Shown piece after piece: positions 8,247-32,541 of a stretch of 64,000 nucleotides of DNA (position 1 is the first letter of the stretch; every line of letters begins with the position of its first letter). The stretch lies in sequence record PX418213.1. One strand, written 5' to 3'. The notes beneath the pieces are model-generated. The model was not told the DNA's origin. It did no database searches and saw nothing but the letters and a program-made list of their open reading frames with translations. A program made the translations under genes and the position numbers. Source of the stretch: a phage.

Positions 8247-8301
8247 CTATATAATTTTGGCGTATTGCAATGAGATAGCCAACTAATAACGGAGCGTTAT
8301 T

Positions 8302-8496
8302 ATGAGCAATAAAATTGTTGTAACCAAAACTACTACGATGGTAGACGTTTTTTACGTGCCCAATACGCCGGAGAATCGACAAGCGGTTGAGCGTGGGGAA
8401 TATGATAAAGTGATCTATGATCACGATGGTTATTATCAGTATTTGGTGGATTCATACGGGGAGGAGGAAAAGATCACGCATCAACTACCTGACTAA
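8302..8496 (+). CDS. hypothetical protein
   Basis: 64-aa ORF, last gene of plus-strand block. Confidence 0.5.
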   Translation: MSNKIVVTKTTTMVDVFYVPNTPENRQAVERGEYDKVIYDHDGYYQYLVDSYGEEEKITHQLPD

Positions 8497-17400: not shown

Positions 17401-17691
17401 TTAGTCCTCCGGATTATCATCCAGGAAATTTTTAATAGCTTCGTGCATAGTTTCTTTACGAAGCTGACGTCCAATCAGAATATGATTAGCTTCTACTCGA
17501 CCATTAGGTAAGCGATCCGCCAGAACTACTACGGGAACTTGGCGCACACCAAATTTCTGCATTAATTCTGTATTATCAGTCTCTTTATGGATTTCCAAAT
17601 TATAGTCACTGACTACTTTATCAAATACTGGCTCGAAAAGTTTGCAAGGGTTGCAAGTGGAACCTTTTAATAGATATACTAATTTACTCAT
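17401..17691 (-). CDS. thioredoxin/glutaredoxin-like protein
   Basis: 96 aa; CxxC motif (CNPC) near N-terminus; terminator downstream. Confidence 0.6.
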   Translation of the reverse strand: MSKLVYLLKGSTCNPCKLFEPVFDKVVSDYNLEIHKETDNTELMQKFGVRQVPVVVLADRLPNGRVEANHILIGRQLRKETMHEAIKNFLDDNPED

Positions 17692-18115
17692 AGTTATTAA
17701 TGGCCTCTAAGAAGTTTCTCATGGTTTTTACGGTTGCGGTGCTTAGATCAAGATTTACACCCAAACACTCGGTTAATGCTTCCTGATAAGGAGCCTTCAA
17801 TCTGCCTTCTGGGACTTCTACCTTTTTATACTCTTTATTTTTGACCTTTTTAATCATAGTCTCTAGTACAAGAAGCGGTAATTTAGCACCTTCAATATCA
17901 GTACCCAAAAGTTCAGTTAAAATTTTATTAAGATCAAGACGAGTTAACTTTTTGCCCTTAGACATAGATGCACCTACCTTTGTATCAATAGATTTTTCCG
18001 CTTTCTTTTCGAGCTTTTTGTACTCAGGAGAGTCATGATCACGGAGTGCAATGTTTAGCTCGTAATGTGGTATACGAAAATGTTCCGCCATTTGAGTATA
18101 GAAACGATCAGACAT
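17684..18115 (-). CDS. hypothetical protein
   Basis: 143-aa ORF. Confidence 0.5.
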   Translation of the reverse strand: MSDRFYTQMAEHFRIPHYELNIALRDHDSPEYKKLEKKAEKSIDTKVGASMSKGKKLTRLDLNKILTELLGTDIEGAKLPLLVLETMIKKVKNKEYKKVEVPEGRLKAPYQEALTECLGVNLDLSTATVKTMRNFLEAINNYE

Positions 18116-18190
18116 AATATATACCTCTCTTAACTAATTTATGTATATATTATATAATAACTAGGGCTAAAAGTCAAATACTTTTTTATC

Positions 18191-18607
18191 TTAATCCACT
18201 GCATGTATAAATCTTTTCCTAACTAGATACATAGTTATTGGGTAAATTGAGTACATAAGTATCGGGGAGAAAAGGGTGAAATACGCTGTAACTCCCCCAG
18301 CTAACATCAAAGGTATTAATGCTAGAGTAAGGGCCATAAGAATCATGCCGAATGAAACAGCCAAAGCTATGGATATAGGATTCTCTAGTTCCATCCATAA
18401 CCAACAATATTTCGTATCTCTATGGCAATTGCATTTACAAACGCCGAATGAACCCATAATTATATACTCTAGTCCGTGAATAACCTTTATTAATAAGCTA
18501 TTTCGGGTAGTTAATGCAAGGATAGTAAAGACTATCATTAAAACGAATACTACTAGACTTATTTTCCAGATACCTAGCAGCATCATAGTGAATAGTTCTG
18601 CAAACAT
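18191..18607 (-). CDS. polytopic membrane protein
   Basis: 138 aa, about 4 hydrophobic helices. Confidence 0.5.
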   Translation of the reverse strand: MFAELFTMMLLGIWKISLVVFVLMIVFTILALTTRNSLLIKVIHGLEYIIMGSFGVCKCNCHRDTKYCWLWMELENPISIALAVSFGMILMALTLALIPLMLAGGVTAYFTLFSPILMYSIYPITMYLVRKRFIHAVD

Positions 18608-18684
18608 GGCTTTCTCCTATCTTCAAAAATTATTAAAGCCCCCTTTGCCTAAAAAGGCGGGAATATTCCCGCCTAAGTTATTAA

Positions 18685-19098
18685 TTAAACTAGTTCGACA
18701 TGACCGCCATCATAGGTACCACGTTTTATTTCATCGTGATAATCTCCCGAAGCATTCCAATCAGCACCAAAACGAAGTTTAATGCCTAGTTCTTTACCAG
18801 CTTGTTCAAAAGCCTTTTTAACTGCCCAAAATGCTTCTAAATCATTCCAATCAATTTTGCCATTAATGTATGGAGCAAAATCAAGGGCATCCCCAGTAAT
18901 ATGCTTGCTTTTACTAGGATCTTTTAAAAATGAAGTACCATTAGCAATATTCTGGGCACTTTGTGCTACTGTACGAATACCCTGTACGATCGTGAAATCA
19001 TATGGAGATAATTCTAAAGCTCTACGAGCTACTTTTTGTAGCTCTGGCTTAACGGTAGCTAATTGTTTTTCGCTATTTTTACCAAATTTAAAACTCAT
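18685..19098 (-). CDS. lys: endolysin, L-alanyl-D-glutamate peptidase type (T5 Lys-like)
   Basis: 137-aa ORF matching T5 endolysin in size and sequence character; immediately downstream of holin-like gene. Confidence 0.7.
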   Translation of the reverse strand: MSFKFGKNSEKQLATVKPELQKVARRALELSPYDFTIVQGIRTVAQSAQNIANGTSFLKDPSKSKHITGDALDFAPYINGKIDWNDLEAFWAVKKAFEQAGKELGIKLRFGADWNASGDYHDEIKRGTYDGGHVELV

Positions 19099-19751
19099 AT
19101 TGATCTACCTAAAGATCTCTGTTGTGGGGAACAGAGCTTTGTTAAATACTCGTTAAATTTCTCAGAATCGGCTGCATCTACAGGATTATCTTTCCAAGCA
19201 ATACCAATATATCCAGCATAGATATTGTTTAGATTGAAATACGGACAAGTGTATATATAATTAAAAGTAACGTTCTTAAACGCAGGTATATTTAACCCCA
19301 TGTATTTATTTACTTTTACACTTAAATCCGACGCGTAGTTAAAGCCGTCTAAGTGACGTCTATATAGCTCAGACGTCTTATTTACCGCTTTATCGGCCAA
19401 GTCAGCCCTATCTAATTGCGCATTGCTTTCCCATGCAATAATGTTAGAATAATCATTAATGGCATCGGGTTTATACTTGACTACAAAAACAGCATCCGCA
19501 CCCGTTTGGGAAAAAAGCACCATGCTCTTTTCTCTAGCTACGTTAGGAAAATTACTTATCCTTTGAGTTTGAACATCCTGTAGAACTGCAGACGTGGAGA
19601 AAGTCTTTAAGAACGACATCACCTCACTAGTATTACTAACAAATAAGAAAATAATGACAGCAACTAAGATAGTTAGCAGACGTTTAAGAAGCGATGCTGG
19701 ATCTTTCGCTTCTTGGAGCAGTACCGTTAATAATTGTAAGAACTTTTCCAA
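19095..19751 (-). CDS. holin (T5-type, 218 aa, single TM)
   Basis: N-terminal TM LLTILVAVIIFLFV; ATGA-coupled to endolysin gene. Confidence 0.6.
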   Translation of the reverse strand: MEKFLQLLTVLLQEAKDPASLLKRLLTILVAVIIFLFVSNTSEVMSFLKTFSTSAVLQDVQTQRISNFPNVAREKSMVLFSQTGADAVFVVKYKPDAINDYSNIIAWESNAQLDRADLADKAVNKTSELYRRHLDGFNYASDLSVKVNKYMGLNIPAFKNVTFNYIYTCPYFNLNNIYAGYIGIAWKDNPVDAADSEKFNEYLTKLCSPQQRSLGRSI

Positions 19752-19922
19752 TTGTAACCTCCTCTAACCAGTACCATTATACTAATTTTGGAGGAAAATT
19801 ACAATGTGTTTTTAAAGATCACTTCTGGAGCATAAAATTTTGTCGTTGTCAAGAAGAATTTTACATAAAAGAAAAGCCAGGGTCGTTAAACCCTGGCTTA
19901 AAACTACTTACTCTTCGTTATG

Positions 19923-20507
19923 CTACTCTGACTGAGGTAACTGGGCTTTATTATATTGCTCAGATCGATATTTTGCCAAGATTTCAATACGCTTATGGAT
20001 TTCTTTGCTATCTAGATAGATATTTTTGTTGTCTTTTACCATCTCGTCGATTTCGTCTATTGAGAAGAACGGATAGTAGACATCTAGCATCATATCTTCT
20101 ACGAACTTGTTGTAAGATTCATAGGCTTTCTTGATTTCTTGACCCTTCTCACAGAATCCGCCAGAGAACGTGTGTCCCATTAGCGTAGCATGTGGATGTA
20201 CTACCCACCCATGGCAGGATAAGAAAATTGTGCAGTAAGCAGAAGCACTAGGACCAACCAGATGTCCTATAACTGTTCCACGGCAATTAGCAATTAAGTT
20301 AGATAACTGTGCAGCAGTATCAACATAACCACCAGGGCCATTAATCATCAGATTAATTTCGTCGTCCTCATTTGCTTGCATAAGTACCATTGATAAATCA
20401 CGGTATTCATCCGGCGGACCTAATTCTTCATCAAAGAAAAAGGTATACTCATTAGATTGGCGAATGGAGTGAAACAGGTTAGTCTTTTCTTCTTTTTTAT
20501 TAGTCAT
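19923..20507 (-). CDS. ClpP-like serine protease
   Basis: INGPGGYV and GPSASAYC motifs resembling ClpP oxyanion and Ser regions. Confidence 0.5.
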   Translation of the reverse strand: MTNKKEEKTNLFHSIRQSNEYTFFFDEELGPPDEYRDLSMVLMQANEDDEINLMINGPGGYVDTAAQLSNLIANCRGTVIGHLVGPSASAYCTIFLSCHGWVVHPHATLMGHTFSGGFCEKGQEIKKAYESYNKFVEDMMLDVYYPFFSIDEIDEMVKDNKNIYLDSKEIHKRIEILAKYRSEQYNKAQLPQSE

Positions 20508-20519
20508 AGCGATCCTTGA

Positions 20520-21272
20520 TTATCCAACTAGTGGTTCTAGCTCTAAGTCACAGAAGTTATAAACTTCTAGTTTAAGGTTATTGATACCATCGAATTTATT
20601 AACTAATTCGTGAGTAATATATTTTGCAGGAATACCACTTTCAGATGGATGATCTGATTTAATAGTAAACTTCTGCTCAGCGGGTACTACATTTACTATC
20701 AAAGAATCCATATCTAAATGGTTTGTTTCTCTGAGTAGCTCTCCTTCATTGGGGAATCTAACATCTGTTATTACGGCGACGTCTGGGTCGTCTTTAGCGA
20801 TGGATTGCTCCAGAATTATGAGCCAAATGCGTTCGTGCACCAGCTGTCTTCCTAGCTCTGTCCCTACGAGCTGTAACATTTTTCTCGGAGAAATAAATAA
20901 ACTGTAAAGTCCGTCTTCTTTATTCTCTGAGATAAGTTGTTGAGGATTAAGATATTTTTCCTCAAAAATAGGCCAAACGTACGAGAAGTCTTCAAACTTA
21001 TCGATACCGTACTTAAACCACACATCTCTGGCTCGCTCCAATTGAGATTGTGTGACCGTAAACCATTGGTCAATCTCTTTCCCCCTGCGCTCTCCTAGAA
21101 ACTCTGGAGTTACACCGAGGATTACGGATGCAAGTTCATAAACGGGCTTAGCAAAACTATAACGATGAGAAAAACACGTTGGATACGTGTCATTACACCA
21201 ATCGATAATTAATTTTGCAACGGTATCTTTTCCCGAACCAGCTTCACCATGTAAACCGACTAATACTGACAT
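20520..21272 (-). CDS. dnk: deoxynucleoside monophosphate kinase
   Basis: 250 aa; P-loop GEAGSGKDT at N-terminus. Confidence 0.65.
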   Translation of the reverse strand: MSVLVGLHGEAGSGKDTVAKLIIDWCNDTYPTCFSHRYSFAKPVYELASVILGVTPEFLGERRGKEIDQWFTVTQSQLERARDVWFKYGIDKFEDFSYVWPIFEEKYLNPQQLISENKEDGLYSLFISPRKMLQLVGTELGRQLVHERIWLIILEQSIAKDDPDVAVITDVRFPNEGELLRETNHLDMDSLIVNVVPAEQKFTIKSDHPSESGIPAKYITHELVNKFDGINNLKLEVYNFCDLELEPLVG

Positions 21273-21625
21273 TAATCTTTCCTATTGTTAATTGGTGGAT
21301 AATATACTAAACAACGTTTTTCTTGCAAATCTTGGCGATAGAAGCAAACCATACTTGTCAGTCGTGAAATATACGAATATTCTGCCTCACGGCATTTTGC
21401 CAACATATTCCAATCTTTATATGGTACAACAACTACTACGCCATCTTCCCCATTTGTAGCTAATTTCTTTTCAAACCTAAAGTTAAAGCTACAAGGTTGA
21501 AGTCCTTTAGGCCAGTCTACATGAGCTTGCTTTAACTCATGAGATGGCTCTGGTTTTATTTCTTCTGCACAGCCTGTGATTGTGATTGTGGCTGCGAGCA
21601 GTACTCCAAGTTTCCAGTTAAACAT
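21272..21625 (-). CDS. o-spanin-like outer-membrane lipoprotein
   Basis: signal peptide with lipobox (ITGC); 70-bp overlap with upstream i-spanin-like gene. Confidence 0.55.
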   Translation of the reverse strand: MFNWKLGVLLAATITITGCAEEIKPEPSHELKQAHVDWPKGLQPCSFNFRFEKKLATNGEDGVVVVVPYKDWNMLAKCREAEYSYISRLTSMVCFYRQDLQEKRCLVYYPPINNRKD

Positions 21626-22005
21626 GCTAATCTTTCCTCGAACTCTTTATTCTGCTTTTTAGCAATTAATGTTACCAATCCAGGCTTTGCAGCGATAACA
21701 TCTTGACGACTAAGAGCTTTATCTAGCTGCTTAATCTTTTTGTCTAGATCTGCTTGCGAAATATTATTCATTGTGAAATACTGATTCATTCTAGTCTCAC
21801 GAAGTTCGCTTTCAGCTTTCACCTTATTAAGGGAAGTCTCTAGAGAAGAGATCTTTTTAGTAGCTACTGCAAGATCTCCCGCTAAAGTCTCCACTTTATC
21901 TACTAAGTGATAAGCACCGAACCCGATGCCTATCGCTAGACCTGCTCCCAGGATGTACCACTTACCGTGCCATATTCCTGAAAGAAGTTTTTGTATCAAA
22001 TCCAT
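21556..22005 (-). CDS. i-spanin-like protein
   Basis: N-terminal TM (YILGAGLAIGIGFGAY) followed by coiled-coil-like periplasmic region. Confidence 0.55.
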   Translation of the reverse strand: MDLIQKLLSGIWHGKWYILGAGLAIGIGFGAYHLVDKVETLAGDLAVATKKISSLETSLNKVKAESELRETRMNQYFTMNNISQADLDKKIKQLDKALSRQDVIAAKPGLVTLIAKKQNKEFEERLACLTGNLEYCSQPQSQSQAVQKK

Positions 22006-22660
22006 GCGCTGCTAACCTGTCTTTATCTGATACTTTAATCATATCAGGCTCACCAGTTCCTAGTACACCGAAGATATACTGTTCGAGAACTTGGTGTAAA
22101 CGGTATAAGTTACTTTCAATTTCCTGCCACGGAATACCTGACTGATGGAAACGAATGTTAGTCTGAATCACGAAGTTACGAACATCATCGTTATCGTTCT
22201 TTTTAATACCTTTCACATATGCAATCGGTACACGCAGTTCGGATAAGATACGTTCTGCTTTAGGTTTTGCTTCAGCGAGCAAATCACGCATTGTTTCACG
22301 AACATCTCCACGACTCTTATCCATTAAGTAAGAGCGAGCATGCAATCCCATCTCTTCCATTTTATCGAACATAGTGTCGAGATTAAACGTTTTGAAGCTA
22401 AATGCTGGATGCCAGCAGTACAGCTCGTGTAACCAGTAAACTTCACCTGCAACAAATAGTGGGTTTACAAAGTATTCGAAATCACCACGGAAAGATAGCG
22501 AACCATCACGAAATACCTGGCGAGTATGCACAATGTTCTTTTCTGCATCATCGGTTACTTTAACCAGCAACTCCTCAGTTTTACGTTCCCACACACGATC
22601 TGGGTCGAACAAACTGTTCTGCAAATCATACACATCGGCGAACTTAGAAATAATCCTCAT
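21962..22660 (-). CDS. hypothetical protein
   Basis: 232-aa ORF downstream of promoter 22692-22720. Confidence 0.55.
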   Translation of the reverse strand: MRIISKFADVYDLQNSLFDPDRVWERKTEELLVKVTDDAEKNIVHTRQVFRDGSLSFRGDFEYFVNPLFVAGEVYWLHELYCWHPAFSFKTFNLDTMFDKMEEMGLHARSYLMDKSRGDVRETMRDLLAEAKPKAERILSELRVPIAYVKGIKKNDNDDVRNFVIQTNIRFHQSGIPWQEIESNLYRLHQVLEQYIFGVLGTGEPDMIKVSDKDRLAAHGFDTKTSFRNMAR

Positions 22661-22691
22661 ATTTAATCCTCTTGCCTCAATCTATAAACAT

Positions 22692-22720
22692 ATTATACAA
22701 AAGTTTGGGCATTTAAGCAA
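22692..22720 (-). promoter_or_regulatory. T5-type strong sigma70 promoter
   Basis: TTGCTT, 17 bp, TATAAT. Confidence 0.6.
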
Positions 22721-22730
22721 CTAAAATTTT

Positions 22731-22770
22731 ATTATAAAAATAGCCCAGTCGCAAAAGTGCGGGCTGGGCT
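22731..22770 (-). terminator. rho-independent terminator
   Basis: AGCCCAG...CTGGGCT hairpin with U-run on minus strand. Confidence 0.55.
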
Positions 22771-22814
22771 TTGTCATTATTTGCTTTTGCTAGTAAGTTG
22801 ATTTAGCATCAATC

Positions 22815-23195
22815 TTATGTAATATTAGTTTCTCTAGCTTTACGTAGTACCCCTGCATTTCTCCACAATTTGATGTCAGCAACTGTTTCTTTATACGGGG
22901 CAATGGTAGAACCAATTGGGCCAGCAACTAATAGCCCAAAGAACCCTACAATACGCATATAGAACAAACATTCTTTGGCTGTCATACTACTTACTGCTTT
23001 TTTCTGTCTTTCATCTCTAAACTCATGCTCTTGATTATCAATACGTAGATACTTAACAAACCATTCAGCAGAGTATTCGTCCAAATGTCTAATAATAGCT
23101 ATAGCATATCCAGCACCGATTAAAAACCAAGTTGTAACAAGAATTAGTAATATAGTCATATTATCTCCAGTTAGGGCTAGCAGCCACCTCACCAC
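22815..23195 (-). CDS. membrane protein
   Basis: 126 aa with TM segments. Confidence 0.5.
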   Translation of the reverse strand: MVRWLLALTGDNMTILLILVTTWFLIGAGYAIAIIRHLDEYSAEWFVKYLRIDNQEHEFRDERQKKAVSSMTAKECLFYMRIVGFFGLLVAGPIGSTIAPYKETVADIKLWRNAGVLRKARETNIT

Positions 23196-23269: not shown

Positions 23270-23554
23270 TTAGGTATTCTGCATTTCAGCTTTAAATTTT
23301 TTCATATTACGAGTTTTTCTATAAAAGAAGAATACAGATGCTGGGCCTAGCAGAATATCCACAATAAATATCATAGATCTAGCACATCTGAGTAATGTTT
23401 TATCATCAAGAGGTGGCAGATCTAACGGTCGAGTTTTATGTATAACGTATAATATTACATCTTTATTCTTAGAAATATACAGATCATCAACCAAGCTGTA
23501 AATAGCAACTACAGATCCAATGACGAACCAAAGAGCAAATGGAGAGATAATCAT
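23270..23554 (-). CDS. membrane protein
   Basis: 94 aa hydrophobic. Confidence 0.5.
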   Translation of the reverse strand: MIISPFALWFVIGSVVAIYSLVDDLYISKNKDVILYVIHKTRPLDLPPLDDKTLLRCARSMIFIVDILLGPASVFFFYRKTRNMKKFKAEMQNT

Positions 23555-26361: not shown

Positions 26362-26437
26362 TGGTAGTTAGTAGTGGATTTGAACCACTGTAGTCACTCC
26401 GTATGAAGGAGGTGCATAACCGCTCTGCCAACTAACT
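26362..26437 (-). tRNA. tRNA, anticodon CAT (Met or Ile2)
   Basis: T-arm GGTTCAAATCC, acceptor AGTTAGT/ACTAACT, CCA encoded. Confidence 0.6.
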
Positions 26438-26533
26438 GTTATGTTTTACTAGACTAAGTAAGTATTCTTTATACTCTTTAGACCAATTAGCTTTTTTAAA
26501 CTTTCCTGGACGCATAGTCTTAATTCCTAAATT

Positions 26534-26610
26534 TGGTACTCCGGGAGGGATTTAAACCCCCGATCTCTCGGTTATCAGCCGAGTGCTTTAGATCGCTAAG
26601 CTACCGAAGC
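26534..26610 (-). tRNA. tRNA-Ile (GAT)
   Basis: acceptor stem pairs; anticodon arm CTCGG-CTGATAA-CCGAG; CCA encoded. Confidence 0.65.
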
Positions 26611-26611
26611 A

Positions 26612-26839
26612 TTAACATTTTACAGTAGAACGTTTGCCATTTCTAGGTGCACCTGGAAGTCGTGCACGTTCTGCCATTCTTCGCTTAATCTTTGAGATAT
26701 TTTCTAGTGTTTGTTTTTCAAGCTTAATACCTGAAACACTACACCACTGATTACCATCCCATGCGGTAATGATCATAACACCATTACTCATAATCTTTTC
26801 TGTGAAAGTAATTCTCATTATAGCAACTCGTCTAAGCAA
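26612..26839 (-). CDS. hypothetical protein
   Basis: 75-aa ORF abutting tRNA; uncertain. Confidence 0.3.
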   Translation of the reverse strand: MLRRVAIMRITFTEKIMSNGVMIITAWDGNQWCSVSGIKLEKQTLENISKIKRRMAERARLPGAPRNGKRSTVKC

Positions 26840-27111
26840 GAGGTATATTTAAGTTTACCATCTTTATCTACTTTAATTTCGACTTCCGCTCGTGGTACTT
26901 GACGAACTACACCATGAATCATCTTATAGCGAATGCCTTTAGCTGGTTCACGATCTTTTGGAAATACTTGCTTAACCGTTACTACCTTGAAACCCTCACG
27001 CGGTGTTAACACTACTACTTGATCACCTTCTTTGATCTTCCAAGAGCTAGGAAATTCATAGGTATAGCGTTGACCACCAGTTTGGAACACAACAGAAAGA
27101 TAACGTTTCAT
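26818..27111 (-). CDS. hypothetical protein
   Basis: 97-aa ORF downstream of promoter 27142-27170. Confidence 0.5.
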   Translation of the reverse strand: MKRYLSVVFQTGGQRYTYEFPSSWKIKEGDQVVVLTPREGFKVVTVKQVFPKDREPAKGIRYKMIHGVVRQVPRAEVEIKVDKDGKLKYTSCLDELL

Positions 27112-27141
27112 TTGGTTTCCCTCTCATTAATTTATATAAAT

Positions 27142-27170
27142 ATTATAACAATAAATAAGAGAGAAAGCAA
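27142..27170 (-). promoter_or_regulatory. T5-type strong sigma70 promoter
   Basis: TTGCTT, 17 bp, TATAAT. Confidence 0.6.
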
Positions 27171-27178
27171 ATGAATTT

Positions 27179-27346
27179 TTAATAAAGTTTAGTCACTTCA
27201 TAAACTATACTACGAGATTCTTTATTACGTTGTATTAAATTAGCATATGCTTCTTCAGCTTCATTTTTAGTATTAAAGTCTATAACGTGGGAGGTATTAG
27301 CTCTGTTTGATTGGCTATACCAGATAACTACTAGGAGTTTAAACAT
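27179..27346 (-). CDS. small hypothetical protein
   Basis: ORF 27179..27373 trimmed to internal Met with AAGGA RBS so it no longer overlaps the tRNA. Confidence 0.4.
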   Translation of the reverse strand: MFKLLVVIWYSQSNRANTSHVIDFNTKNEAEEAYANLIQRNKESRSIVYEVTKLY

Positions 27347-27360
27347 ACTAATCCTTAAAT

Positions 27361-27447
27361 TGGTGCTGGGCACAGGATTCGAACCTGCAATGGGATTACT
27401 CCTCCTGATTACAAATCAGGTGCATTCAACCATTCTGCCAACCCAGC
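27361..27447 (-). tRNA. tRNA with long extra arm, anticodon TGT (Thr-type) in arm CCTGA-TTTGTAA-TCAGG
   Basis: 87 nt; acceptor GCTGGGT/GCCCAGC; T-arm GCAGG-TTCGAAT-CCTGT; class-II-like length unusual for Thr. Confidence 0.5.
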
Positions 27448-27612
27448 AGAACCCGTTATTTCAACGGGATTTCTTTTTCAATAACAAGAGACTTGTCAGT
27501 CATAACTATCATTGCCATTTGTTGTAGAAATTCAAAGGTGAAGGCTACACGTTCTTCACCAATCTCTACTTCTACACGTTTCTTTTGTTTATCGATCTTG
27601 ACTTTTATGTTA

Positions 27613-27864
27613 TCAGCCATTAGAGAGTACAGTACTGGTAGTTGGCAATACTACAGATGAAGCAACAGTGTTTAAATGCTTTCTCCAGTCTAGGTTAAAT
27701 TGTTTTCGAAACTCTTCATAAGGTTCTTCTGGATAAAAGCTAAAACCCCCTTTCTCATCATTCAGGATAACAGATCCGTCAGTTTGTTCGTATGCTCGGT
27801 ATGTTTCTCCAATAACAATAACTCGTTTATCGGTACTTTTATTACGAAACTCAAAAACGTGCAT
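27613..27864 (-). CDS. hypothetical protein
   Basis: 83-aa ORF. Confidence 0.5.
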   Translation of the reverse strand: MHVFEFRNKSTDKRVIVIGETYRAYEQTDGSVILNDEKGGFSFYPEEPYEEFRKQFNLDWRKHLNTVASSVVLPTTSTVLSNG

Positions 27865-27880
27865 AATGTTTCCTTAAAGT

Positions 27881-27956
27881 TGGAGCGGCTAGAGGGAATC
27901 GAACCCTACTCAGCGAGGCTTGGAAGGCCTGCGACACAACCCATGTGCTTAACCGC
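27881..27956 (-). tRNA. tRNA-Gly (TCC), tentative
   Basis: acceptor GCGGTTA/TAGCCGC; loop CTTCCAA; one mismatch in anticodon stem. Confidence 0.5.
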
Positions 27957-27964
27957 TTATTATT

Positions 27965-28040
27965 TGGCTGGAGAAGGAGGAATCGAACCTACCATTAACG
28001 GAGTCAAAGGCCGTTGTGCTAACCGTTACACTACTCTCCA
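27965..28040 (-). tRNA. tRNA-Gln (TTG)
   Basis: U1-A72 acceptor (TGGAGAG/CTTCTCCA) as in bacterial tRNA-Gln; loop CTTTGAC. Confidence 0.55.
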
Positions 28041-28046
28041 ATTATT

Positions 28047-28122
28047 TGGCTGGAGTGCCTGGGATCGAACCAGGAACCTTCGGAGTCAGAGGCCGACGAT
28101 CTGCCAATTGATCTACACTCCA
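28047..28122 (-). tRNA. tRNA, anticodon CTG (Gln-type), tentative
   Basis: acceptor TGGAGTG/CACTCCA; T-arm CTGGG-TTCGATC-CCAGG; loop CTCTGAC. Confidence 0.5.
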
Positions 28123-28131
28123 AAAATGCTA

Positions 28132-28368
28132 TTAACTAGATGCTGTTTCTACTGGCTGAGACACAGCAGGCTGTTCTAACGTATCTGGTGCTGATACAGA
28201 GAAAAGAGCTTGTAATGCTGCAATATCACGCTCGTAAGTATCAATACGAGTAGTAAGAGTATCTACCATCTGTTTATGGTAGGCTAAGTTATTCTGAGAT
28301 TCATCTCGAAGAGTTTGCAGTTCTGCAAGACGTGTTAACATAATTTCACTAATTAAAGCATTACTCAT
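28132..28368 (-). CDS. coiled-coil protein
   Basis: 78-aa ORF. Confidence 0.5.
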   Translation of the reverse strand: MSNALISEIMLTRLAELQTLRDESQNNLAYHKQMVDTLTTRIDTYERDIAALQALFSVSAPDTLEQPAVSQPVETASS

Positions 28369-28558
28369 TTGTTTCTCCTAAGTTTTCCGGTTCTTCTAAA
28401 CGTTTGCCTTCATGATCTACTCGAATAACTCCGCACCCTTCGCAAATCACAACTGCACCATAACCTTCTTTGACCTCAGCTTCTGTAATCAAACCAGAAA
28501 GATCACCAGTATCTCTGCCCCACATATCAATGGAGCATTGTTTGCAGAAATCAGCCAT
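28361..28558 (-). CDS. hypothetical protein
   Basis: 65-aa ORF. Confidence 0.45.
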   Translation of the reverse strand: MADFCKQCSIDMWGRDTGDLSGLITEAEVKEGYGAVVICEGCGVIRVDHEGKRLEEPENLGETNE

Positions 28559-28583
28559 ATTTTATTTCCTATTTAAGTTAATT

Positions 28584-28660
28584 TGGGGTGGCTAGTGGAA
28601 TTCGAATCCACATAGGCCTGATTCACAATCAGGATCATTAACCAATTATGATATAGCCAC
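28584..28660 (-). tRNA. tRNA-His (GTG)
   Basis: extra 5' G typical of tRNA-His; anticodon arm CTGAT-TGTGAAT-ATCAG. Confidence 0.7.
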
Positions 28661-29029
28661 AATTGAAAACTCGCAGGGTTAGCGAAACCATCCTCAATTA
28701 GCATGTTCTAGAATACTAATCAAGTTATCTCCTATTGCACGCAGCTCAAGACGAGTACGAATTTTCAATTGTGGCGGCTCTCCGAAACTCTTCTACTCTA
28801 GCCTTAGCAGCTTACTCCCGAACGCATGTCGGGAAAGTCTTACTAAGAGTATCAAATAGCACCGTTACACTTTGAGCCATAGGTGTATCAAGAAGCAGAA
28901 GGACTTGAACCTTCACGAGATAGACCATTTATCTCAGCCGCTTTATGAGGTATGTTGCGGGGAGTGGATGTTCCCCATAAACCTTTTAGGCAGCCCCGTC
29001 TACCGATTCCGGCATACTTCAAGATTTTT
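28661..29029 (-). ncRNA. non-coding stretch with isolated T-arm-like hairpin
   Basis: GAAGG-TTCAAGT-CCTTC hairpin near 28898-28914 with no matching acceptor stem; GGGGA..TCCCC hairpin at 28958-28975. Confidence 0.3.
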
Positions 29030-29203
29030 TTATAAACCAGCAGAAGCCTCATTTAGAGCATCAACAATAGCTTCACGTTGGGTCATTCCATACCCGGTGG
29101 AATCTAGGTGTGGCAAATAAGCCATCCATCCCTTATCTGTTTCATGAAGACATGCTTTAAATTTTGTACCATCCTTCATTGTTACAGTAACTGTTTTGCT
29201 CAT
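29030..29203 (-). CDS. small hypothetical protein (57 aa)
   Basis: hand-translated MSKTVTVTMKDGTKFKACLHE...; AAGGAAA RBS. Confidence 0.4.
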   Translation of the reverse strand: MSKTVTVTMKDGTKFKACLHETDKGWMAYLPHLDSTGYGMTQREAIVDALNEASAGL

Positions 29204-29223
29204 AAGATTTCCTTATAGTTAAT

Positions 29224-29313
29224 TGGCAGAAGATAATGGAGTCGAACCATCACCGTATCGCTACAGCGGGCTGGTTTTCAAGACCAGTTACGTACCACTA
29301 CGTCCTATCTTCT
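29224..29313 (-). tRNA. tRNA-Ser (TGA)
   Basis: 90 nt with long variable arm; anticodon arm CTGGT-CTTGAAA-ACCAG. Confidence 0.7.
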
Positions 29314-29326
29314 AGTATTTATTATA

Positions 29327-29674
29327 CTAATAGTCACTCGTACTAGTGAAGTTTTCTACTTTTCCACAAATTTTACAAGTCCTACGATGGTAGTAGGTAA
29401 TTTTTACTTTAGACCAGCCATCGTGATCATTACCTAGGTTTTCTGTTACTCCCCAAGTATGAGAACACTCATTTTCAATTTGCTTAGTAAGAGCGTTATA
29501 GCGAGTATAAAACTCCTCCTGAGCAATAGCAAACTCTTTCTGTAGTTTATCACGAGCAATAATAGCACGTTCCAGATATGTTAAATCTGGCATTCCAGCT
29601 TTTTCAGCAGCATCTATAATCTTATCTTCATCTAAAGATGCTAAAAACTCTAGAGCTTTATCTTTTGCTAACAT
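29327..29674 (-). CDS. hypothetical protein with C-terminal Cys pairs
   Basis: 115-aa ORF; ...CSHTWG...RRTCKICGK. Confidence 0.5.
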   Translation of the reverse strand: MLAKDKALEFLASLDEDKIIDAAEKAGMPDLTYLERAIIARDKLQKEFAIAQEEFYTRYNALTKQIENECSHTWGVTENLGNDHDGWSKVKITYYHRRTCKICGKVENFTSTSDY

Positions 29675-29693
29675 TATTATTACCTCAAGTGTT

Positions 29694-29784
29694 TGGCGGA
29701 AGAGGAGAGATTTGAACTCTCAAGCCGTTTTACCAGTCAGCCACTTTCCAAGCGGTTTTCGTCGCCAATTCGATTTGCTCTTCC
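29694..29784 (-). tRNA. tRNA-Ser (GGA), tentative
   Basis: 91 nt; acceptor GGAAGAG/CTCTTCC; T-arm GAGAG-TTCAAAT-CTCTC; long variable arm. Confidence 0.55.
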
Positions 29785-29804
29785 AATAATAAGATGATGC
29801 CTCT

Positions 29805-29893
29805 ATCACACCAGGCTGTTATGCCTCGCTGGGATTCGAACCCATTAAAACAGCTCAACCGAGATAGTAGGTTTAATTTACTCTGACCATCAA
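29805..29893 (-). ncRNA. degenerate tRNA-like element
   Basis: T-loop GGGTTCGAATCCC at 29831-29843 but no complementary acceptor strand or encoded CCA. Confidence 0.3.
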
Positions 29894-29896
29894 ATT

Positions 29897-29973
29897 TGGT
29901 GCGTGACAAGGGATTCGAACCCTCAAAACCCGACTTCTAAGGACGGTATGTATGCCAATTCCATCAATCACGC
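29897..29973 (-). tRNA. atypical tRNA, anticodon TAG (Leu codon) but class-I length
   Basis: 77 nt; acceptor GCGTGAT/GTCACGC; D-loop GAATTGG (Leu-like); loop CTTAGAA; no long variable arm. Confidence 0.45.
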
Positions 29974-29978
29974 GTATT

Positions 29979-30057
29979 TGGTGGAGAATAACGGAATCGA
30001 ACCGTTCTGATGTCCTCGGTGCAAGCGAGGTGTCCACTCCATGCAGACCCATTCCCC
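29979..30057 (-). tRNA. tRNA-Ala (TGC)
   Basis: G3:U70 pair in acceptor (GGGGAAT/ATTCTCC); anticodon arm CCTCG-CTTGCAC-CGAGG. Confidence 0.7.
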
Positions 30058-30295
30058 AAATTCTTTAGTTTACTAAGGCTATTAGCTCGGCGCAACTACA
30101 GCACCTTCGCTTCGAGCGGAAGGAACTGCGTCATCTCGCAAACCCAATACACTATTCAGTTGCCGCTGAATCTAGTGGACTAATCTAGAACTTCTCCCGA
30201 ATCGTAGGGATCGTGCTTTTTGGCAGCCAGTCCTAGGTCGAGCTAATACCTTAGTGAACTATGATGAGGATTTCTCCTCATCAATTTATATAAAT
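30058..30295 (-). ncRNA. structured leader / candidate ncRNA at 5' end of tRNA transcript
   Basis: no ORF; long-range complement AGGCTATTAGCTCG (30076-30089) with CGAGCTAATACCT (30239-30251); local hairpins. Confidence 0.35.
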
Positions 30296-30324
30296 ATTAT
30301 AACAAGAAATTAAGCATCAAGCAA
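30296..30324 (-). promoter_or_regulatory. T5-type promoter driving tRNA cluster segment
   Basis: TTGCTT, 17 bp, TATAAT; overlaps 3' end of CDS 30317-30685. Confidence 0.55.
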
Positions 30325-30685
30325 GTACATTTTTAGCGATTTCTTGCAGTTCCTTTACATCACGAACGTAAAGGTAATCAGAGCTTCCAGAGTGCATACT
30401 TTGCATAACTACACCTTCATCTGGTGCATTATCCTTCAGAGTAATTCCTAACCAGAACTCGGCAAAACTAGGTGTTATCTCACCTTGACTTGCCTTGAAT
30501 ACATCATATTCTGTAAGTTCTTGACCAGTAGATAATCCCAAATAGACAGAACTAAGATCTATCTCTTTATGAGACTCATAAAACTCCGTTAGATCTTTCT
30601 CCATATCCCAACCATGCTGTAACGCGAACTCCATTGCCACATGACTGAAATAACCTTGAATCTTGCTTGATAATTGCATTTGCAA
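30317..30685 (-). CDS. hypothetical protein
   Basis: 122-aa ORF starting with TTG. Confidence 0.5.
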   Translation of the reverse strand: MQMQLSSKIQGYFSHVAMEFALQHGWDMEKDLTEFYESHKEIDLSSVYLGLSTGQELTEYDVFKASQGEITPSFAEFWLGITLKDNAPDEGVVMQSMHSGSSDYLYVRDVKELQEIAKNVLA

Positions 30686-30704
30686 TTCCTTATTTTGAGT
30701 TAAT

Positions 30705-30778
30705 TGGTACTCGGTGATAGAATCGAACTATCGCAATCGCCGTGTAAAGACGGGGTTCTCCCATTAAACTAACCGAGC
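30705..30778 (-). tRNA. tRNA-Val (TAC), tentative
   Basis: acceptor GCTCGGT/ACCGAGT; T-arm GATAG-TTCGATT-CTATC; loop TTTACAC. Confidence 0.5.
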
Positions 30779-30782
30779 AATT

Positions 30783-30861
30783 TGGTAGATCGCCTGGGAC
30801 TCGAACCCAGAACCTTCCGATTAAAAGTCGGATGCTACTAAACCTATTGAGCTAGCGATCT
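30783..30861 (-). tRNA. tRNA-Lys (TTT)
   Basis: anticodon arm TCCGA-CTTTTAA-TCGGA; acceptor AGATCGC/GCGATCT. Confidence 0.7.
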
Positions 30862-30862
30862 A

Positions 30863-31030
30863 TTAGTAACCATTGTATACTTCTTTAATAGAGTGAATTT
30901 TCAAGTAAGGGTGATTAGTATTAAACTCTGCCATTACTTCATCCCAATTTTTACCGTAATGAGCGAGTAAGGATTTTGATGTATTCTTACCTAAACGTTT
31001 GTCACTTACTACTAATCGAAATACTTTCAT
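30863..31030 (-). CDS. small hypothetical protein (55 aa)
   Basis: hand-translated MKVFRLVVSDKRLGKN...; AGAGGA RBS. Confidence 0.4.
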   Translation of the reverse strand: MKVFRLVVSDKRLGKNTSKSLLAHYGKNWDEVMAEFNTNHPYLKIHSIKEVYNGY

Positions 31031-31050
31031 TTCGAAATCCTCTATTAAAA

Positions 31051-31128
31051 TGGAAGCGGGTGCAGGAATCGAACCTACCTCTTTCTAGCTTATGAGACTA
31101 GTGATCTCTACCAGAGATCTAACCCGCA
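31051..31128 (-). tRNA. tRNA, anticodon CAT (Met/fMet/Ile2)
   Basis: anticodon arm CTAGT-CTCATAA-GCTAG; T-arm GTAGG-TTCGATT-CCTGC; irregular acceptor end. Confidence 0.55.
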
Positions 31129-31134
31129 ATTGTT

Positions 31135-31212
31135 TGGTCTCCGTGGGAGGATTTGAACCCCCGACCCTATCGCCCCAAACGAAACGCTCTGGCCAAACTG
31201 AGCTACACGGAG
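31135..31212 (-). tRNA. tRNA-Pro (TGG)
   Basis: acceptor CTCCGTG/CACGGAG; D-arm GCTCAGTTTGGCCAGAGC; loop TTTGGGG. Confidence 0.6.
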
Positions 31213-31216
31213 AATA

Positions 31217-31375
31217 TTATTTCTTCAACCACAACAAAGATAAGCCCAACATACTAAAGCCGCTAACTAATCCGATACATTTTTCTTCTATAGTAAAAGT
31301 ATCTAGATTAAATGCTGTTATAGCTATTGGCATACACCATAATGCCATAAAAACTTGAGCTATCTTGTGTTTCAT
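31217..31375 (-). CDS. small membrane protein (52 aa)
   Basis: hand-translated MKHKIAQVFMALWCMPIAITAF...; GAAGGAAAG RBS; promoter directly upstream. Confidence 0.4.
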   Translation of the reverse strand: MKHKIAQVFMALWCMPIAITAFNLDTFTIEEKCIGLVSGFSMLGLSLLWLKK

Positions 31376-31407
31376 TTTGCTTTCCTTCTCTTCACTTTAT
31401 AAGATAT

Positions 31408-31436
31408 ATTATACAGAGAATTAAGCAGAATAGCAA
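31408..31436 (-). promoter_or_regulatory. T5-type strong sigma70 promoter
   Basis: TTGCTA, 17 bp, TATAAT. Confidence 0.6.
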
Positions 31437-31439
31437 ATG

Positions 31440-31828
31440 AATTTTTAATAAATTTACTTATTGTGTAGGCCACCTGGAGGCTACCAACCCCACGGCTGAC
31501 AAAGAAGTTTGCGAGACCTCTCTTAAATGCCAGAATAGACCCGCCGATCTATCGGAACCTACATAATAAGTAAACTTTATAGTGTCATTCTAGACAGGAC
31601 TCGAACCTGTTATCACTTGTGCGGACTTACGAGAACCATTCTTTCACTCGAATCGAACGAGCTTCTGCCCTAGCCAAGCTGGTTTCCCCATCAACCACGC
31701 TAGAATGTTTGATTGTTTTCAGTGCAAGAGTCCGAGTCTTGGACACGACCGCTTCGCAAGTACATAGGCAGCTTATCATGAGTCAGCACTTCCGAATTGC
31801 TAGCTCCGTGTTCTGCACTGAAATTTTG
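31440..31828 (-). ncRNA. structured non-coding region with tRNA-like elements
   Basis: no ORF; D-arm-like TGGTT-GATGGGGA-AACCA; two T-arm-like hairpins (CTCG-TTCGATT-CGAG and ACAGG-TTCGAGT-CCTGT); ATTCTAG/CTAGAAT complement about 120 nt apart; separate stem TTCAGTGCA/TGCACTGAA (31719-31727 with 31812-31820). Confidence 0.35.
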
Positions 31829-32176
31829 TTAATTTAATAGTAAAGTACGATCTACTTCACCATTAATTGTTCGGCACTCTTCTGGGATTGCTGGTGTAGC
31901 CTTATATTCCCACCATTCAGAACCGTCGTATTCACCACGTTCTAACCAAGTTCCGTCAGTAAACCATACATTACCATAAAGCAATTGCCCACCGAAACCC
32001 GAGTCATATTTAAAGTCTAGATTATTTAGAAAATCTTCAATATCTTTTTCTGTATAACCTACGGGCAATACCCAAACTTCTTTGTCTCCATAATAACCGA
32101 ATTCTATCTTAATACACTTAACTTCAGAATTAGTATTCTTTAGGGCAAGTAACAACTCTTCTTTAGCATTAATCAT
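31829..32176 (-). CDS. hypothetical protein
   Basis: 115-aa ORF. Confidence 0.5.
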   Translation of the reverse strand: MINAKEELLLALKNTNSEVKCIKIEFGYYGDKEVWVLPVGYTEKDIEDFLNNLDFKYDSGFGGQLLYGNVWFTDGTWLERGEYDGSEWWEYKATPAIPEECRTINGEVDRTLLLN

Positions 32177-32202
32177 AGCATATTTCTCGTGCTAGTTTAA
32201 TT

Positions 32203-32278
32203 TGGTACACCCACTAGGACTTGAACCTAGAACCCTCCGCTTAAGAGGCGGTAGCTCTAACCATTGAGCTATGGATGT
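32203..32278 (-). tRNA. tRNA, anticodon CTT (Lys-type), tentative
   Basis: acceptor ACATCCA/TGGGTGT; D-arm GCTCAATGGTTAGAGC; loop CTCTTAA. Confidence 0.5.
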
Positions 32279-32279
32279 A

Positions 32280-32438: not shown

Positions 32439-32455
32439 AGCTAACCTACCTTATT

Positions 32456-32532: not shown

Positions 32533-32541
32533 ATAATTCAT

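What the first reader, a model, noticed from the sequence alone, without database searches (positions are those of the whole stretch)
18685..22005. Lysis genes in two places: holin-endolysin pair and a separate overlapped spanin-like pair
Holin (19095-19751) and endolysin (18685-19098) are coupled. About 1.5 kb further on, beyond a ClpP-like and a dNMP kinase gene, lies an i-spanin-like/o-spanin-like pair with a 70-bp overlap (21272-22005). A polytopic membrane protein (18191-18607) sits just after the endolysin and could be an antiholin or second holin.
Basis: partly seen in the sequence, partly recalled or inferred. Interest (0 to 1): 0.4.

Follow-up and report, generated by a model that had tools for sequence, protein, structure and literature searches.

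The report
T5-type phage lysis genes, already known
This stretch holds the standard, already published cell-bursting genes of a T5-like phage (holin, endolysin and an overlapping spanin pair); only the small membrane protein next to them still has no known role.

Summary
The window is a T5-like phage (Tequintavirus), 98.5% identical in DNA to Salmonella phage PS3-1. On the minus strand:
- A T4-type class III holin (19095-19751) overlaps the endolysin (18685-19098) by 4 nt. The endolysin matches the solved T5 enzyme EndoT5 at 136 of 137 residues.
- About 1.5 kb upstream in the direction of transcription, an i-spanin (21556-22005) and an o-spanin (21272-21625, lipobox ITGC) overlap by exactly 70 nt.
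- A dNMP kinase gene and a ClpP-like gene lie between the two sets.

All of this is already known. The T5 RefSeq record annotates these genes together with their promoters and terminators. Kongari et al. 2018 state that "the T5 spanins overlap by 70 bp". The layout is ancestral: the block i-spanin, o-spanin, dNMP kinase, ClpP-like, holin, endolysin is kept in three Demerecviridae lineages.

The 138-aa membrane protein (18191-18607, T5.039 family) always follows the endolysin in Markadamsvirinae-type phages. It is missing from two other Demerecviridae that carry the same holin and endolysin. It has no sequence or fold relative among known holins or antiholins. In T5-type genomes a terminator-like hairpin separates it from the endolysin.

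Verdict: ordinary, low interest.

The parts
19776..19804 (-). Sigma-70-type promoter of the holin-endolysin unit (TTGTAA, 17 nt, TATAAT)
   Evidence: Consensus scan, 10 of 12 matches. The equivalent TTGxAx, 16-17 nt, TATAAT/TATACT element is present at the same place in the Klebsiella phage locus L004 and in the metagenomic relatives L005 and L006. T5 RefSeq annotates a promoter here.
19095..19751 (-). Class III (T4 gpt-type) holin, 218 aa; homologue of T5.041 hol
   Evidence: Pfam PF11031 Phage_holin_T at 4.8e-113, matched over its full length. phrog_860 holin at 4.2e-78. Residues 56-217 align with the periplasmic domain of T4 holin T in PDB 6PXE at 1e-16. Single TMD at about residues 22-38; Cys169 and Cys207. 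TTG start with a strong Shine-Dalgarno sequence.
18685..19098 (-). Endolysin, a Zn-dependent L-alanyl-D-glutamate peptidase (M15), 137 aa; homologue of T5.040 lys (EndoT5)
   Evidence: 136 of 137 residues identical to PDB 2MXZ/8P3A. His66, Asp73, His133 and Trp114 are read directly from the sequence. No TMD or signal sequence. Its start overlaps the holin stop by 4 nt, ATGA.
18650..18672 (-). Terminator-like hairpin (GGCGGGAAUAUUCCCGCC followed by U5) after the endolysin; coordinates approximate
   Evidence: RNA fold of -16.7 kcal/mol, z = -2.6. Annotated as a rho-independent terminator in T5. A hairpin is present in T5, L004 and L006. It is absent in KKP_3711 and L005, where the next gene follows after 1-3 nt.
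18191..18607 (-). 138-aa polytopic inner-membrane protein of unknown function (T5.039 family, phrog_5944)
   Evidence: phrog_5944 at 6.7e-83, function unknown. AlphaFold2 model with pLDDT 83: helices 2-34, 37-53, 77-103 and 109-134, plus a Cys-containing beta-hairpin at 56-74. Good Shine-Dalgarno sequence, AGGAG. Only 11 family representatives among 1.84 billion proteins. In every context examined it lies immediately after the M15 endolysin.
21556..22005 (-). i-spanin, 149 aa; homologue of T5.045 and relative of T4 PseT.3
   Evidence: phrog_739 Rz-like spanin at 1.6e-37. N-terminal uncharged TMD at 16-35, then heptad-patterned helix. BLASTP against T4 PseT.3 gives 3e-06, with a shared KPGLV motif. 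Cys128 and Cys136 lie in the C-terminal tail.
21272..21625 (-). o-spanin, an outer-membrane lipoprotein precursor of 117 aa; homologue of T5.044 and relative of T4 PseT.2. It overlaps the i-spanin gene by 70 nt.
   Evidence: phrog_812 Rz-like spanin at 1.8e-29. Lipobox ITGC with Cys19, and Ala at position +2. BLASTP against T4 PseT.2 gives 7e-07; C94 and C105 align with T4 C87 and C98. Homologues in L005, L007 and L017 carry Pfam PF26831 Phage_T4_Spanin.
20520..21272 (-). dNMP kinase (T5.043 dnk). Not a lysis gene; it is co-transcribed with the spanins, and its start overlaps the o-spanin stop as TAATG.
   Evidence: Pfam DNMK at 1.3e-11 and phrog_139 at 5e-52. Junction sequence read.
19923..20507 (-). 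ClpP-like serine protease homologue (T5.042), last gene of the spanin-dnk unit
   Evidence: Pfam CLP_protease at 4e-08 and phrog_1827 at 4.7e-89. In the alignment to ClpP structure 3Q7H, the active-site Ser and His motifs are kept.
19874..19899 (-). Rho-independent terminator that closes the unit holding the spanin, dnk and ClpP-like genes
   Evidence: Stem of 11 pairs followed by a T-run. Fold of -18.5 kcal/mol, z = -4.8. Annotated as a terminator in T5.

Best explanation
This is the canonical lysis apparatus of a T5-like phage, encoded in two neighbouring early-region transcription units on the minus strand.

Unit 1 runs from its own promoter to a hairpin. It makes a T4 gpt-type class III holin and, translationally coupled to it, the soluble Zn peptidase EndoT5. 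The holin accumulates in the inner membrane and at its set time forms large holes. These let the signal-less endolysin reach the murein, where it cuts the L-Ala-D-Glu bond.

Unit 2 lies upstream and holds the T5.047 homologue, the i-spanin, the o-spanin, the dNMP kinase and the ClpP-like protein, ending at a terminator. It makes a T4 PseT.3/PseT.2-type two-component spanin. The i-spanin is anchored in the inner membrane. The o-spanin is a lipoprotein of the outer membrane. Together they span the periplasm, and once the murein is gone they fuse or disrupt the outer membrane.

Shown here: gene identities, overlaps, motifs, homologies, and conservation of the layout. Inferred from T4, lambda and T5 work: the order of events in lysis, and the signals that define the two transcription units.

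The 138-aa membrane protein after the endolysin is an accessory gene specific to one lineage. Its role is undefined.
For: - Identity of the phage: 98.5% DNA identity to T5-like phages over 4.8 kb, with 427 records covering at least 80% of the query. Gene-for-gene match to T5 RefSeq T5.039-T5.047, including the annotated promoters and terminators.
- Holin: Pfam Phage_holin_T at 4.8e-113. It aligns with the T4 T periplasmic domain in 6PXE at 1e-16.
- Endolysin: 136 of 137 residues identical to solved EndoT5, 2MXZ, and no export signal.
- Spanins: phrog_739 and phrog_812 at 1.6e-37 and 1.8e-29. TMD, lipobox and the 70-nt overlap verified. Homology to T4 PseT.3 and PseT.2 at 3e-06 and 7e-07, with the two C-terminal Cys of PseT.2 conserved. 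Those Cys are essential in T4, and the T4 pair complements lambda Rz/Rz1 amber mutants (PMC6139136).
- Prior publication: the 70-bp overlap and the T5 spanin families are in PMC6139136. T5 hol is cited as a class III gpt homologue in PMC12894885. The same layout is described for the T5-like phage KPP105 in PMC12136712.
- Conservation: the block is kept in Markadamsvirinae, Mccorquodalevirinae (DU_PP_V) and Priunavirus (PSTCR5).
- Unit boundaries: a promoter upstream of the holin and terminators after the ClpP-like gene and after the endolysin.
Against: No experiment on this particular phage was available. Hole formation, spanin function and the transcription units are inferred from homologues. 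The local Pfam copy lacks PF26831, so the window's own o-spanin could not be scored against that model. TM and lipobox calls rest on hydropathy and regular-expression checks, not on TMHMM, SignalP or LipoP. The promoter scan as a whole is not enriched over shuffles (23 sites found against 19 expected), so the promoter assignment rests on conservation and on the T5 annotation.
Confidence: 0.93

Rival explanations
1. The 138-aa membrane protein (18191-18607) is a working part of the lysis system. It would be an antiholin or lysis-timing modulator of the class III holin, acting within the inner membrane. P2 LysA is the analogue: a 141-aa hydrophobic protein, annotated as affecting lysis timing, that also sits right after the endolysin gene. 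On this reading the gene is expressed by read-through of the hairpin after lys.
For: - In all relatives examined that carry the gene, it lies immediately after the M15 endolysin, down to 28-33% protein identity. The spacing is only 1-3 nt in KKP_3711 and L005, which implies co-transcription there.
- No promoter of its own was found between the hairpin and its start.
- The last two helices are strongly conserved, which fits protein-protein contact within the membrane.
- Its size, polytopic nature, basic C-terminus and gene position resemble P2 LysA, which is annotated as affecting lysis timing.
- A lysis-inhibition phenotype of a T5 mutant was reported in 1958 (Lanni, cited in PMC6832632), and I found no antiholin named for T5.
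Against: - It is absent from DU_PP_V and PSTCR5. Those phages have the same holin and endolysin, and the T5.038 homologue follows lys directly.
- No similarity to P2 LysA (E = 0.32) or to T4 RI or rI.1.
- No hit to any holin or antiholin family in Pfam, NCBIfam or PHROGs.
- A terminator-like hairpin separates it from lys in T5-type genomes.
- The whole region is syntenic, so adjacency alone is weak evidence.
Confidence: 0.12
2. The 138-aa membrane protein is a second holin. It would make or help make the membrane lesion, in parallel with the T-type holin.
For: It is small, has several TMDs and has a short basic C-terminal tail (RKRF...), which are generic holin traits. It lies next to the endolysin.
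Against: These traits are shared by many small membrane proteins. There is no match to any holin family. The T-type holin alone is sufficient in T4-type systems (established knowledge, cited). The gene is dispensable in other Demerecviridae. It lies behind a terminator-like hairpin.
Confidence: 0.04
3. The 138-aa membrane protein has nothing to do with lysis. It would be an early accessory membrane protein, for example for superinfection exclusion, membrane repair after DNA injection, or host takeover, that was inserted between lys and T5.038 in the Markadamsvirinae ancestor.
For: - Its distribution is limited to one lineage, and it occupies an insertion-like position between genes that are adjacent in other Demerecviridae.
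- In T5 it is bracketed by a terminator upstream and a promoter downstream.
- It lies in the early region among many other small membrane proteins of unknown role, such as T5.048, T5.049 and T5.052.
Against: No positive evidence for any particular alternative role. No PADLOC hit. The tight coupling to lys in two lineages is not explained by this reading.
Confidence: 0.8

Closest known systems
Bacteriophage T5 lysis genes: T5.041 hol, T5.040 lys (EndoT5, PDB 2MXZ/8P3A), T5.045 and T5.044 spanins (NC_005859; Kongari et al. 2018, PMC6139136)
   Same: Same genes, order, strand and overlaps: hol/lys by 4 nt and the two spanin genes by 70 nt. Same intervening dnk and ClpP-like genes, and the same terminators. 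The endolysin is identical at 136 of 137 residues, and the membrane protein is 97.8% identical to T5.039.
   Different: The HNH homing endonuclease hegF (T5.046), which lies between T5.047 and the i-spanin in T5, is missing here. As a result the T5.047 homologue overlaps the i-spanin start by 44 nt, and the longest i-spanin ORF is 149 aa rather than 147 aa.
Bacteriophage T4 lysis system: holin T, antiholins RI and RIII, spanins PseT.3/PseT.2
   Same: The holin belongs to the same Pfam family and has the same one-TMD topology with a large periplasmic domain. The spanins are detectable homologues, and the C-terminal Cys pair of the o-spanin is conserved.
   Different: - The T4 spanin genes overlap by only 4 nt (the 'separated' class), against 70 nt here.
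- T4 t, e and the spanin genes are scattered across the genome, while here they lie within 3.3 kb.
- The T4 endolysin is a lysozyme (established knowledge), whereas here it is an M15 peptidase.
- No RI or rI.1 homologue is detectable in the window.
- The i-spanin here has a C-terminal tail with two Cys, while PseT.3 has none.
Bacteriophage P2 lysis cassette: Y, K, lysA, lysB/lysC
   Same: The gene order holin, endolysin, membrane protein of about 140 aa is the same. The i-/o-spanin pair is of the overlapped type, as in lysB/lysC.
   Different: No sequence similarity between P2 LysA and the 138-aa protein (E = 0.32). The P2 spanins follow lysA directly, whereas here they lie upstream in another transcription unit. 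The holin class differs.

Membership tests
Class III holin (T4 gpt family, Pfam PF11031 Phage_holin_T) | Full-length match to the family profile above the curated cut-off | tested here: met
   376.7 bits against a cut-off of 22.2, E = 4.8e-113. Residues 3-217 match profile positions 2-233.
Class III holin (T4 gpt family, Pfam PF11031 Phage_holin_T) | A single N-terminal TMD followed by a large periplasmic C-terminal domain homologous to that of T4 T | tested here: met
   One hydrophobic segment at about residues 22-38. Residues 56-217 align with the T4 T periplasmic domain in 6PXE at 1e-16. Topology itself is inferred, not measured.
Class III holin (T4 gpt family, Pfam PF11031 Phage_holin_T) | Forms lethal membrane holes that release a soluble endolysin | not testable with these tools
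   This needs an expression or lysis assay. The T5 hol/lys operon was studied by Chernyshov et al. 2024, which I saw only as a citation in PMC12894885.
EndoT5-type M15 L-alanyl-D-glutamate peptidase endolysin | Sequence identity to the solved enzyme, with the residues H66, D73 and H133 (which I take from memory to be the Zn ligands) and Trp114 present | tested here: met
   136 of 137 residues identical to 2MXZ/8P3A. H66, D73, H133 and W114 are read from the translation. The role of W114 is described in PMC10487532 (abstract seen).
EndoT5-type M15 L-alanyl-D-glutamate peptidase endolysin | No signal peptide or SAR domain, so the enzyme depends on a holin for export | tested here: met
   The best 17-aa hydropathy window scores 0.43, with no hydrophobic segment.
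Two-component spanin, i-spanin subunit (T5 family; related to T4 PseT.3) | N-terminal TMD (type II inner-membrane protein) with a largely helical, coiled-coil periplasmic domain | tested here: met
   Uncharged stretch of 20 residues at 16-35. The heptad pattern is filled 8 of 8 in residues 36-63. This is a crude heuristic, not a coiled-coil prediction program.
Two-component spanin, i-spanin subunit (T5 family; related to T4 PseT.3) | Sequence homology to established i-spanins | tested here: met
   phrog_739 at 1.6e-37. T4 PseT.3 at 3e-06. 97-100% identical to i-spanins of T5-like phages listed in the T5 family of Kongari et al., for example EPS7 at 97.3%.
Two-component spanin, o-spanin subunit (T5 family; related to T4 PseT.2, Pfam PF26831) | Outer-membrane lipoprotein signal: hydrophobic N-terminus, a lipobox ending in Cys, and no Asp at position +2 | tested here: met
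   The N-terminus reads MFNWKLGVLLAATITITG-C19-A. This was a regular-expression check only. LipoP and SignalP were not available.
Two-component spanin, o-spanin subunit (T5 family; related to T4 PseT.2, Pfam PF26831) | Homology to PseT.2, including the two C-terminal Cys that are essential in T4 | tested here: met
   BLASTP at 7e-07. C94 and C105 align with T4 C87 and C98. The essential role of those Cys comes from PMC6139136. PF26831 itself is not in the local Pfam copy, but it is recorded for the homologues in L005, L007 and L017.
Two-component spanin (either subunit) | The gene pair lies adjacent in an embedded, overlapped or separated arrangement | tested here: met
   Overlapped by 70 nt, with the frames offset by 2 nt. 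This is identical to the published T5 value. The overlap is 34 nt in DU_PP_V and 49 nt in PSTCR5.
Two-component spanin (either subunit) | Required for outer-membrane disruption, or able to complement lambda Rz/Rz1 amber mutants | not testable with these tools
   Shown for T4 PseT.3/PseT.2. I found no such test for the T5 pair.
Antiholin (T4 RI or RIII type, or P2 LysA type), considered for the 138-aa protein | Sequence or fold homology to a known antiholin | tested here: not met
Antiholin (T4 RI or RIII type, or P2 LysA type), considered for the 138-aa protein | Co-occurrence with its cognate holin wherever that holin occurs | tested here: not met
   Present in about 520 records, against about 542-552 records with the spanins. 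Absent from DU_PP_V and PSTCR5, which have the same holin and endolysin.
Antiholin (T4 RI or RIII type, or P2 LysA type), considered for the 138-aa protein | Delays holin triggering, or binds the holin | not testable with these tools
   This needs genetics or an interaction assay.
Holin (any class), considered for the 138-aa protein | Match to a described holin family | tested here: not met
   No Pfam hit even at E up to 10. No NCBIfam hit. PHROGs gives only phrog_5944, function unknown.

The most novel reading that the evidence does not exclude
The T5.039-family membrane protein (18191-18607) could be a previously unrecognised membrane-embedded regulator, such as an antiholin, of the class III T-type holin. 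It would be specific to Markadamsvirinae, expressed by read-through of the hairpin after lys, and perhaps linked to the lysis-inhibition phenotype that Lanni reported for a T5 mutant in 1958. A weaker variant concerns the ClpP-like protease: it is conserved between the spanin and holin genes throughout Demerecviridae and might take part in lysis control.
Probability: 0.12. Interest if true: 0.5.

Novelty: already known. Interest (0 to 1): 0.1.

Why it matters
It matters little. The finding correctly re-derives, from raw sequence, the textbook T5 lysis genes. Their identity, the 70-bp spanin overlap and the split layout are already in the RefSeq annotation and in the spanin literature.

Two open points remain.
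- No antiholin is known for the T5 class III holin. The conserved four-helix membrane protein right after the endolysin is a cheap candidate to knock out.
- Why the spanin genes of all Demerecviridae are co-transcribed with a dNMP kinase and a ClpP-like protease, rather than with the holin and endolysin, is unexplained.

Tried and rejected
- **Homology of the 138-aa protein to known lysis regulators.** BLASTP against P2 LysA gave E = 0.32. tblastn of T4 RI, T4 rI.1 and P2 LysA against the whole window gave nothing better than E = 0.26. Rejected.
- **Family scans of the 138-aa protein.** Pfam up to E = 10, NCBIfam and PADLOC gave no hits. PHROGs gave only an unknown-function family.
- **Exhaustive HMMER search of 1.84 billion representatives with the 138-aa protein.** Only 11 hits came back. 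The eight near-full-length representatives at lower identity are 130-137 aa, and every one whose context I checked lies in a T5-like locus. One further hit is a 3220-aa protein that matches only a short 27-residue stretch, which I judged not meaningful.
- **Phage CSP1 paper (PMC13577005).** Checked because CSP1 has newly described antiholin-like genes. It is a 60-kb phage, no T5-related term occurs in the paper, and the genes involved lie next to a tail-fibre gene, so it is not relevant.
- **Pfam PF26831 (Phage_T4_Spanin) for the window's o-spanin.** The model is not in the local Pfam copy. I used direct BLASTP against T4 PseT.2 instead.
- **Chernyshov et al. 2024 on the T5 hol/lys operon.** The paper is not held in the library, so it is cited only through PMC12894885.
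- **First attempt to fetch T4 pseT.** I used the wrong coordinates and corrected them.

Full report
**What the window is.** The 4.8-kb stretch 18000-22800 is 98.5% identical to Salmonella phage PS3-1 and 98.4% identical to Escherichia phage HK6. It matches 455 phage records, nearly all T5-like phages of Salmonella and Escherichia. The window also carries a run of 24 tRNA genes, as T5 does. All genes discussed here lie on the minus strand.

**Check of the observation.**
- The holin ORF (19095-19751) starts at TTG behind a GAGGAGG Shine-Dalgarno sequence. It ends in ATGA, which contains the endolysin start, so the overlap is 4 nt.
- The i-spanin ORF (21556-22005) and the o-spanin ORF (21272-21625) overlap by 70 nt, with their frames offset by 2 nt.
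- The o-spanin stop overlaps the dNMP kinase start as TAATG.
- The distance from the holin start to the o-spanin stop is 1.52 kb. A ClpP-like gene and a dNMP kinase gene fill it.

- The o-spanin begins MFNWKLGVLLAATITITG-C19-A, a standard lipobox without Asp at position +2.
- The i-spanin has one uncharged 20-residue stretch (16-35), followed by heptad-patterned helix.
- The holin has one TMD.
- The endolysin has no hydrophobic segment.
- The 138-aa protein has three to four hydrophobic helices.

**Identity of the parts.**
- Holin: it matches Pfam Phage_holin_T over its full length (E = 4.8e-113). Its C-terminal 160 residues align with the periplasmic domain of T4 holin T, which was solved in complex with RI (6PXE, E = 1e-16).
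- Endolysin: it differs from the solved T5 L-alanyl-D-glutamate peptidase EndoT5 (2MXZ, 8P3A) at one residue out of 137. It keeps H66, D73, H133 and W114.
- Spanins: the two proteins hit the PHROG Rz-like spanin families at 1.6e-37 and 1.8e-29. They are detectable homologues of T4 PseT.3 (3e-06) and PseT.2 (7e-07).
- In the PseT.2 alignment, the o-spanin's C94 and C105 fall on T4 C87 and C98. Kongari et al. showed that both Cys are essential and that the T4 pair complements lambda Rz/Rz1 amber mutants (PMC6139136).

**Transcription units.**
- A strong hairpin with a T-run follows the ClpP-like gene at 19899-19874 (-18.5 kcal/mol, z = -4.8).
- A promoter, TTGTAA-17-TATAAT, lies at 19804-19776. 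It is conserved in distant relatives.
- A second hairpin with a U-run follows the endolysin (-16.7 kcal/mol).
- T5 RefSeq annotates the same promoters and terminators.

So the holin and endolysin form a short unit of their own. The spanins belong to the upstream unit: T5.047 homologue, i-spanin, o-spanin, dnk and ClpP-like gene. The scan finds a candidate promoter for that unit at 22754-22726. These signals are consensus matches supported by conservation, not transcript data.

**Already known.** The T5 reference record labels these genes T5.039 (hypothetical, four TMDs), lys, hol, ATP-dependent protease, dnk, and two Rz-like spanins noted as similar to T4 PseT.2.
- Kongari et al. 2018 define T5 i-spanin and o-spanin families of the overlapped type and state that "the T5 spanins overlap by 70 bp".
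- The phiKZ lysis paper cites T5 hol as a class III gpt homologue and cites a 2024 study of the T5 holin/endolysin operon.
- A paper on the T5-like Klebsiella phage KPP105 describes endolysin, holin, two intervening genes, then o-spanin and i-spanin.
- Hundreds of GenBank records annotate the pair as o-spanin and i-spanin.

**How old the layout is.** The block i-spanin, o-spanin, dNMP kinase, ClpP-like, holin T, M15 endolysin is intact in all of the following:
- Enterobacter phage KKP_3711, Klebsiella phages and several metagenomic contigs whose membrane protein is only 28-49% identical to the window's;
- Pectobacterium phage DU_PP_V (Mccorquodalevirinae), with a spanin overlap of 34 nt;
- Providencia phage PSTCR5 (Priunavirus), with a spanin overlap of 49 nt. 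There I found the unannotated o-spanin and holin ORFs myself.

The two-place arrangement is therefore a family-wide ancestral trait, not a peculiarity of this genome. It is also less scattered than in T4.

**The polytopic membrane protein (18191-18607).** This is the only part of the finding that is not already settled.

Points in favour of a link with lysis:
- In every relative that carries the gene, it lies directly after the endolysin. In KKP_3711 and L005 the spacing is only 1-3 nt.
- Its last two helices are highly conserved.
- I saw no promoter of its own.
- Its size, polytopic nature and position recall P2 LysA.

Points against:
- It is missing from DU_PP_V and PSTCR5. There the homologue of the next gene (T5.038, beginning MSDRFY...) follows the endolysin directly, although the holin and endolysin are the same.
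- It matches no holin, antiholin or defence family.
- It shows no similarity to P2 LysA, T4 RI or rI.1.
- An exhaustive search of 1.84 billion proteins finds only 11 representatives. Every one whose context I checked lies in a T5-like locus.
- A confident AlphaFold2 model (pLDDT 83: four helices plus a Cys-bearing beta-hairpin) has no informative structural neighbour.

On the positive-inside rule, the basic C-terminus and the hairpin loop would face the cytoplasm. That is inference only. I rate a lysis-regulator role at about 0.12 and a second-holin role at about 0.04. The most likely reading is a lineage-specific early membrane protein of unknown function.

**Verdict.** The side hypothesis is untested and only weakly supported. 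Interest is low.

Noticed in passing
window 21962-22005 (junction of the 232-aa ORF and the i-spanin); compare L002 7246-7743 and L006 1067-1561: T5 has the HNH homing endonuclease hegF (T5.046) between T5.047 and the i-spanin gene. This window lacks it, so the T5.047 homologue overlaps the i-spanin start by 44 nt. A metagenomic relative (L006) has an HNH_3 gene at the same spot. [quoted passage not shown]
   Followed up: partly
window 19923-20507 (-): A ClpP-like protein (T5.042 homologue) is conserved between the dNMP kinase and the holin in all Demerecviridae loci examined. In the alignment to ClpP structure 3Q7H it keeps the active-site Ser (GPSASA) and His motifs, but the position of the catalytic Asp aligns with Asn in a low-confidence stretch. 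It is separate from the phage's head protease. Its role is unknown.
   Followed up: partly
window 21087-21090 (-), inside the dNMP kinase gene: The sequence GA-GCGC-AG lies 182 nt from the dnk start. This is the same offset at which T5 RefSeq annotates a major single-strand interruption (nick) site with the consensus Pu-GCGC. This phage probably carries the same nick site.
   Followed up: partly
window 26362-39075 (-): A cluster of 24 tRNA genes, all on the minus strand, as in T5.
   Followed up: no
window 22815-23195 and 23270-23554 (-): Two further small proteins, each with two hydrophobic segments (T5.048 and T5.049 homologues), lie just upstream of the spanin unit. Their function is unknown. 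They were not examined as possible lysis regulators.
   Followed up: no
window 17684-18115 (-) and its homologues at L013 8430-8792 and L014 8836-9270: The T5.038 homologue (N-terminus MSDRFY.Q.A..F) is conserved across three Demerecviridae lineages. It has a weak PHROG hit to a DNA-binding protein family (phrog_624, 1.4e-08). It has its own near-consensus promoter, TTGACT-17-TATAAT, at 18177-18149.
   Followed up: no
L014 (Providencia phage PSTCR5, MW057857) 5770-6096 and 7664-8332: The o-spanin (lipobox IVGC) and the T-type holin are not annotated in this GenBank record. Both ORFs are present and intact.
   Followed up: yes
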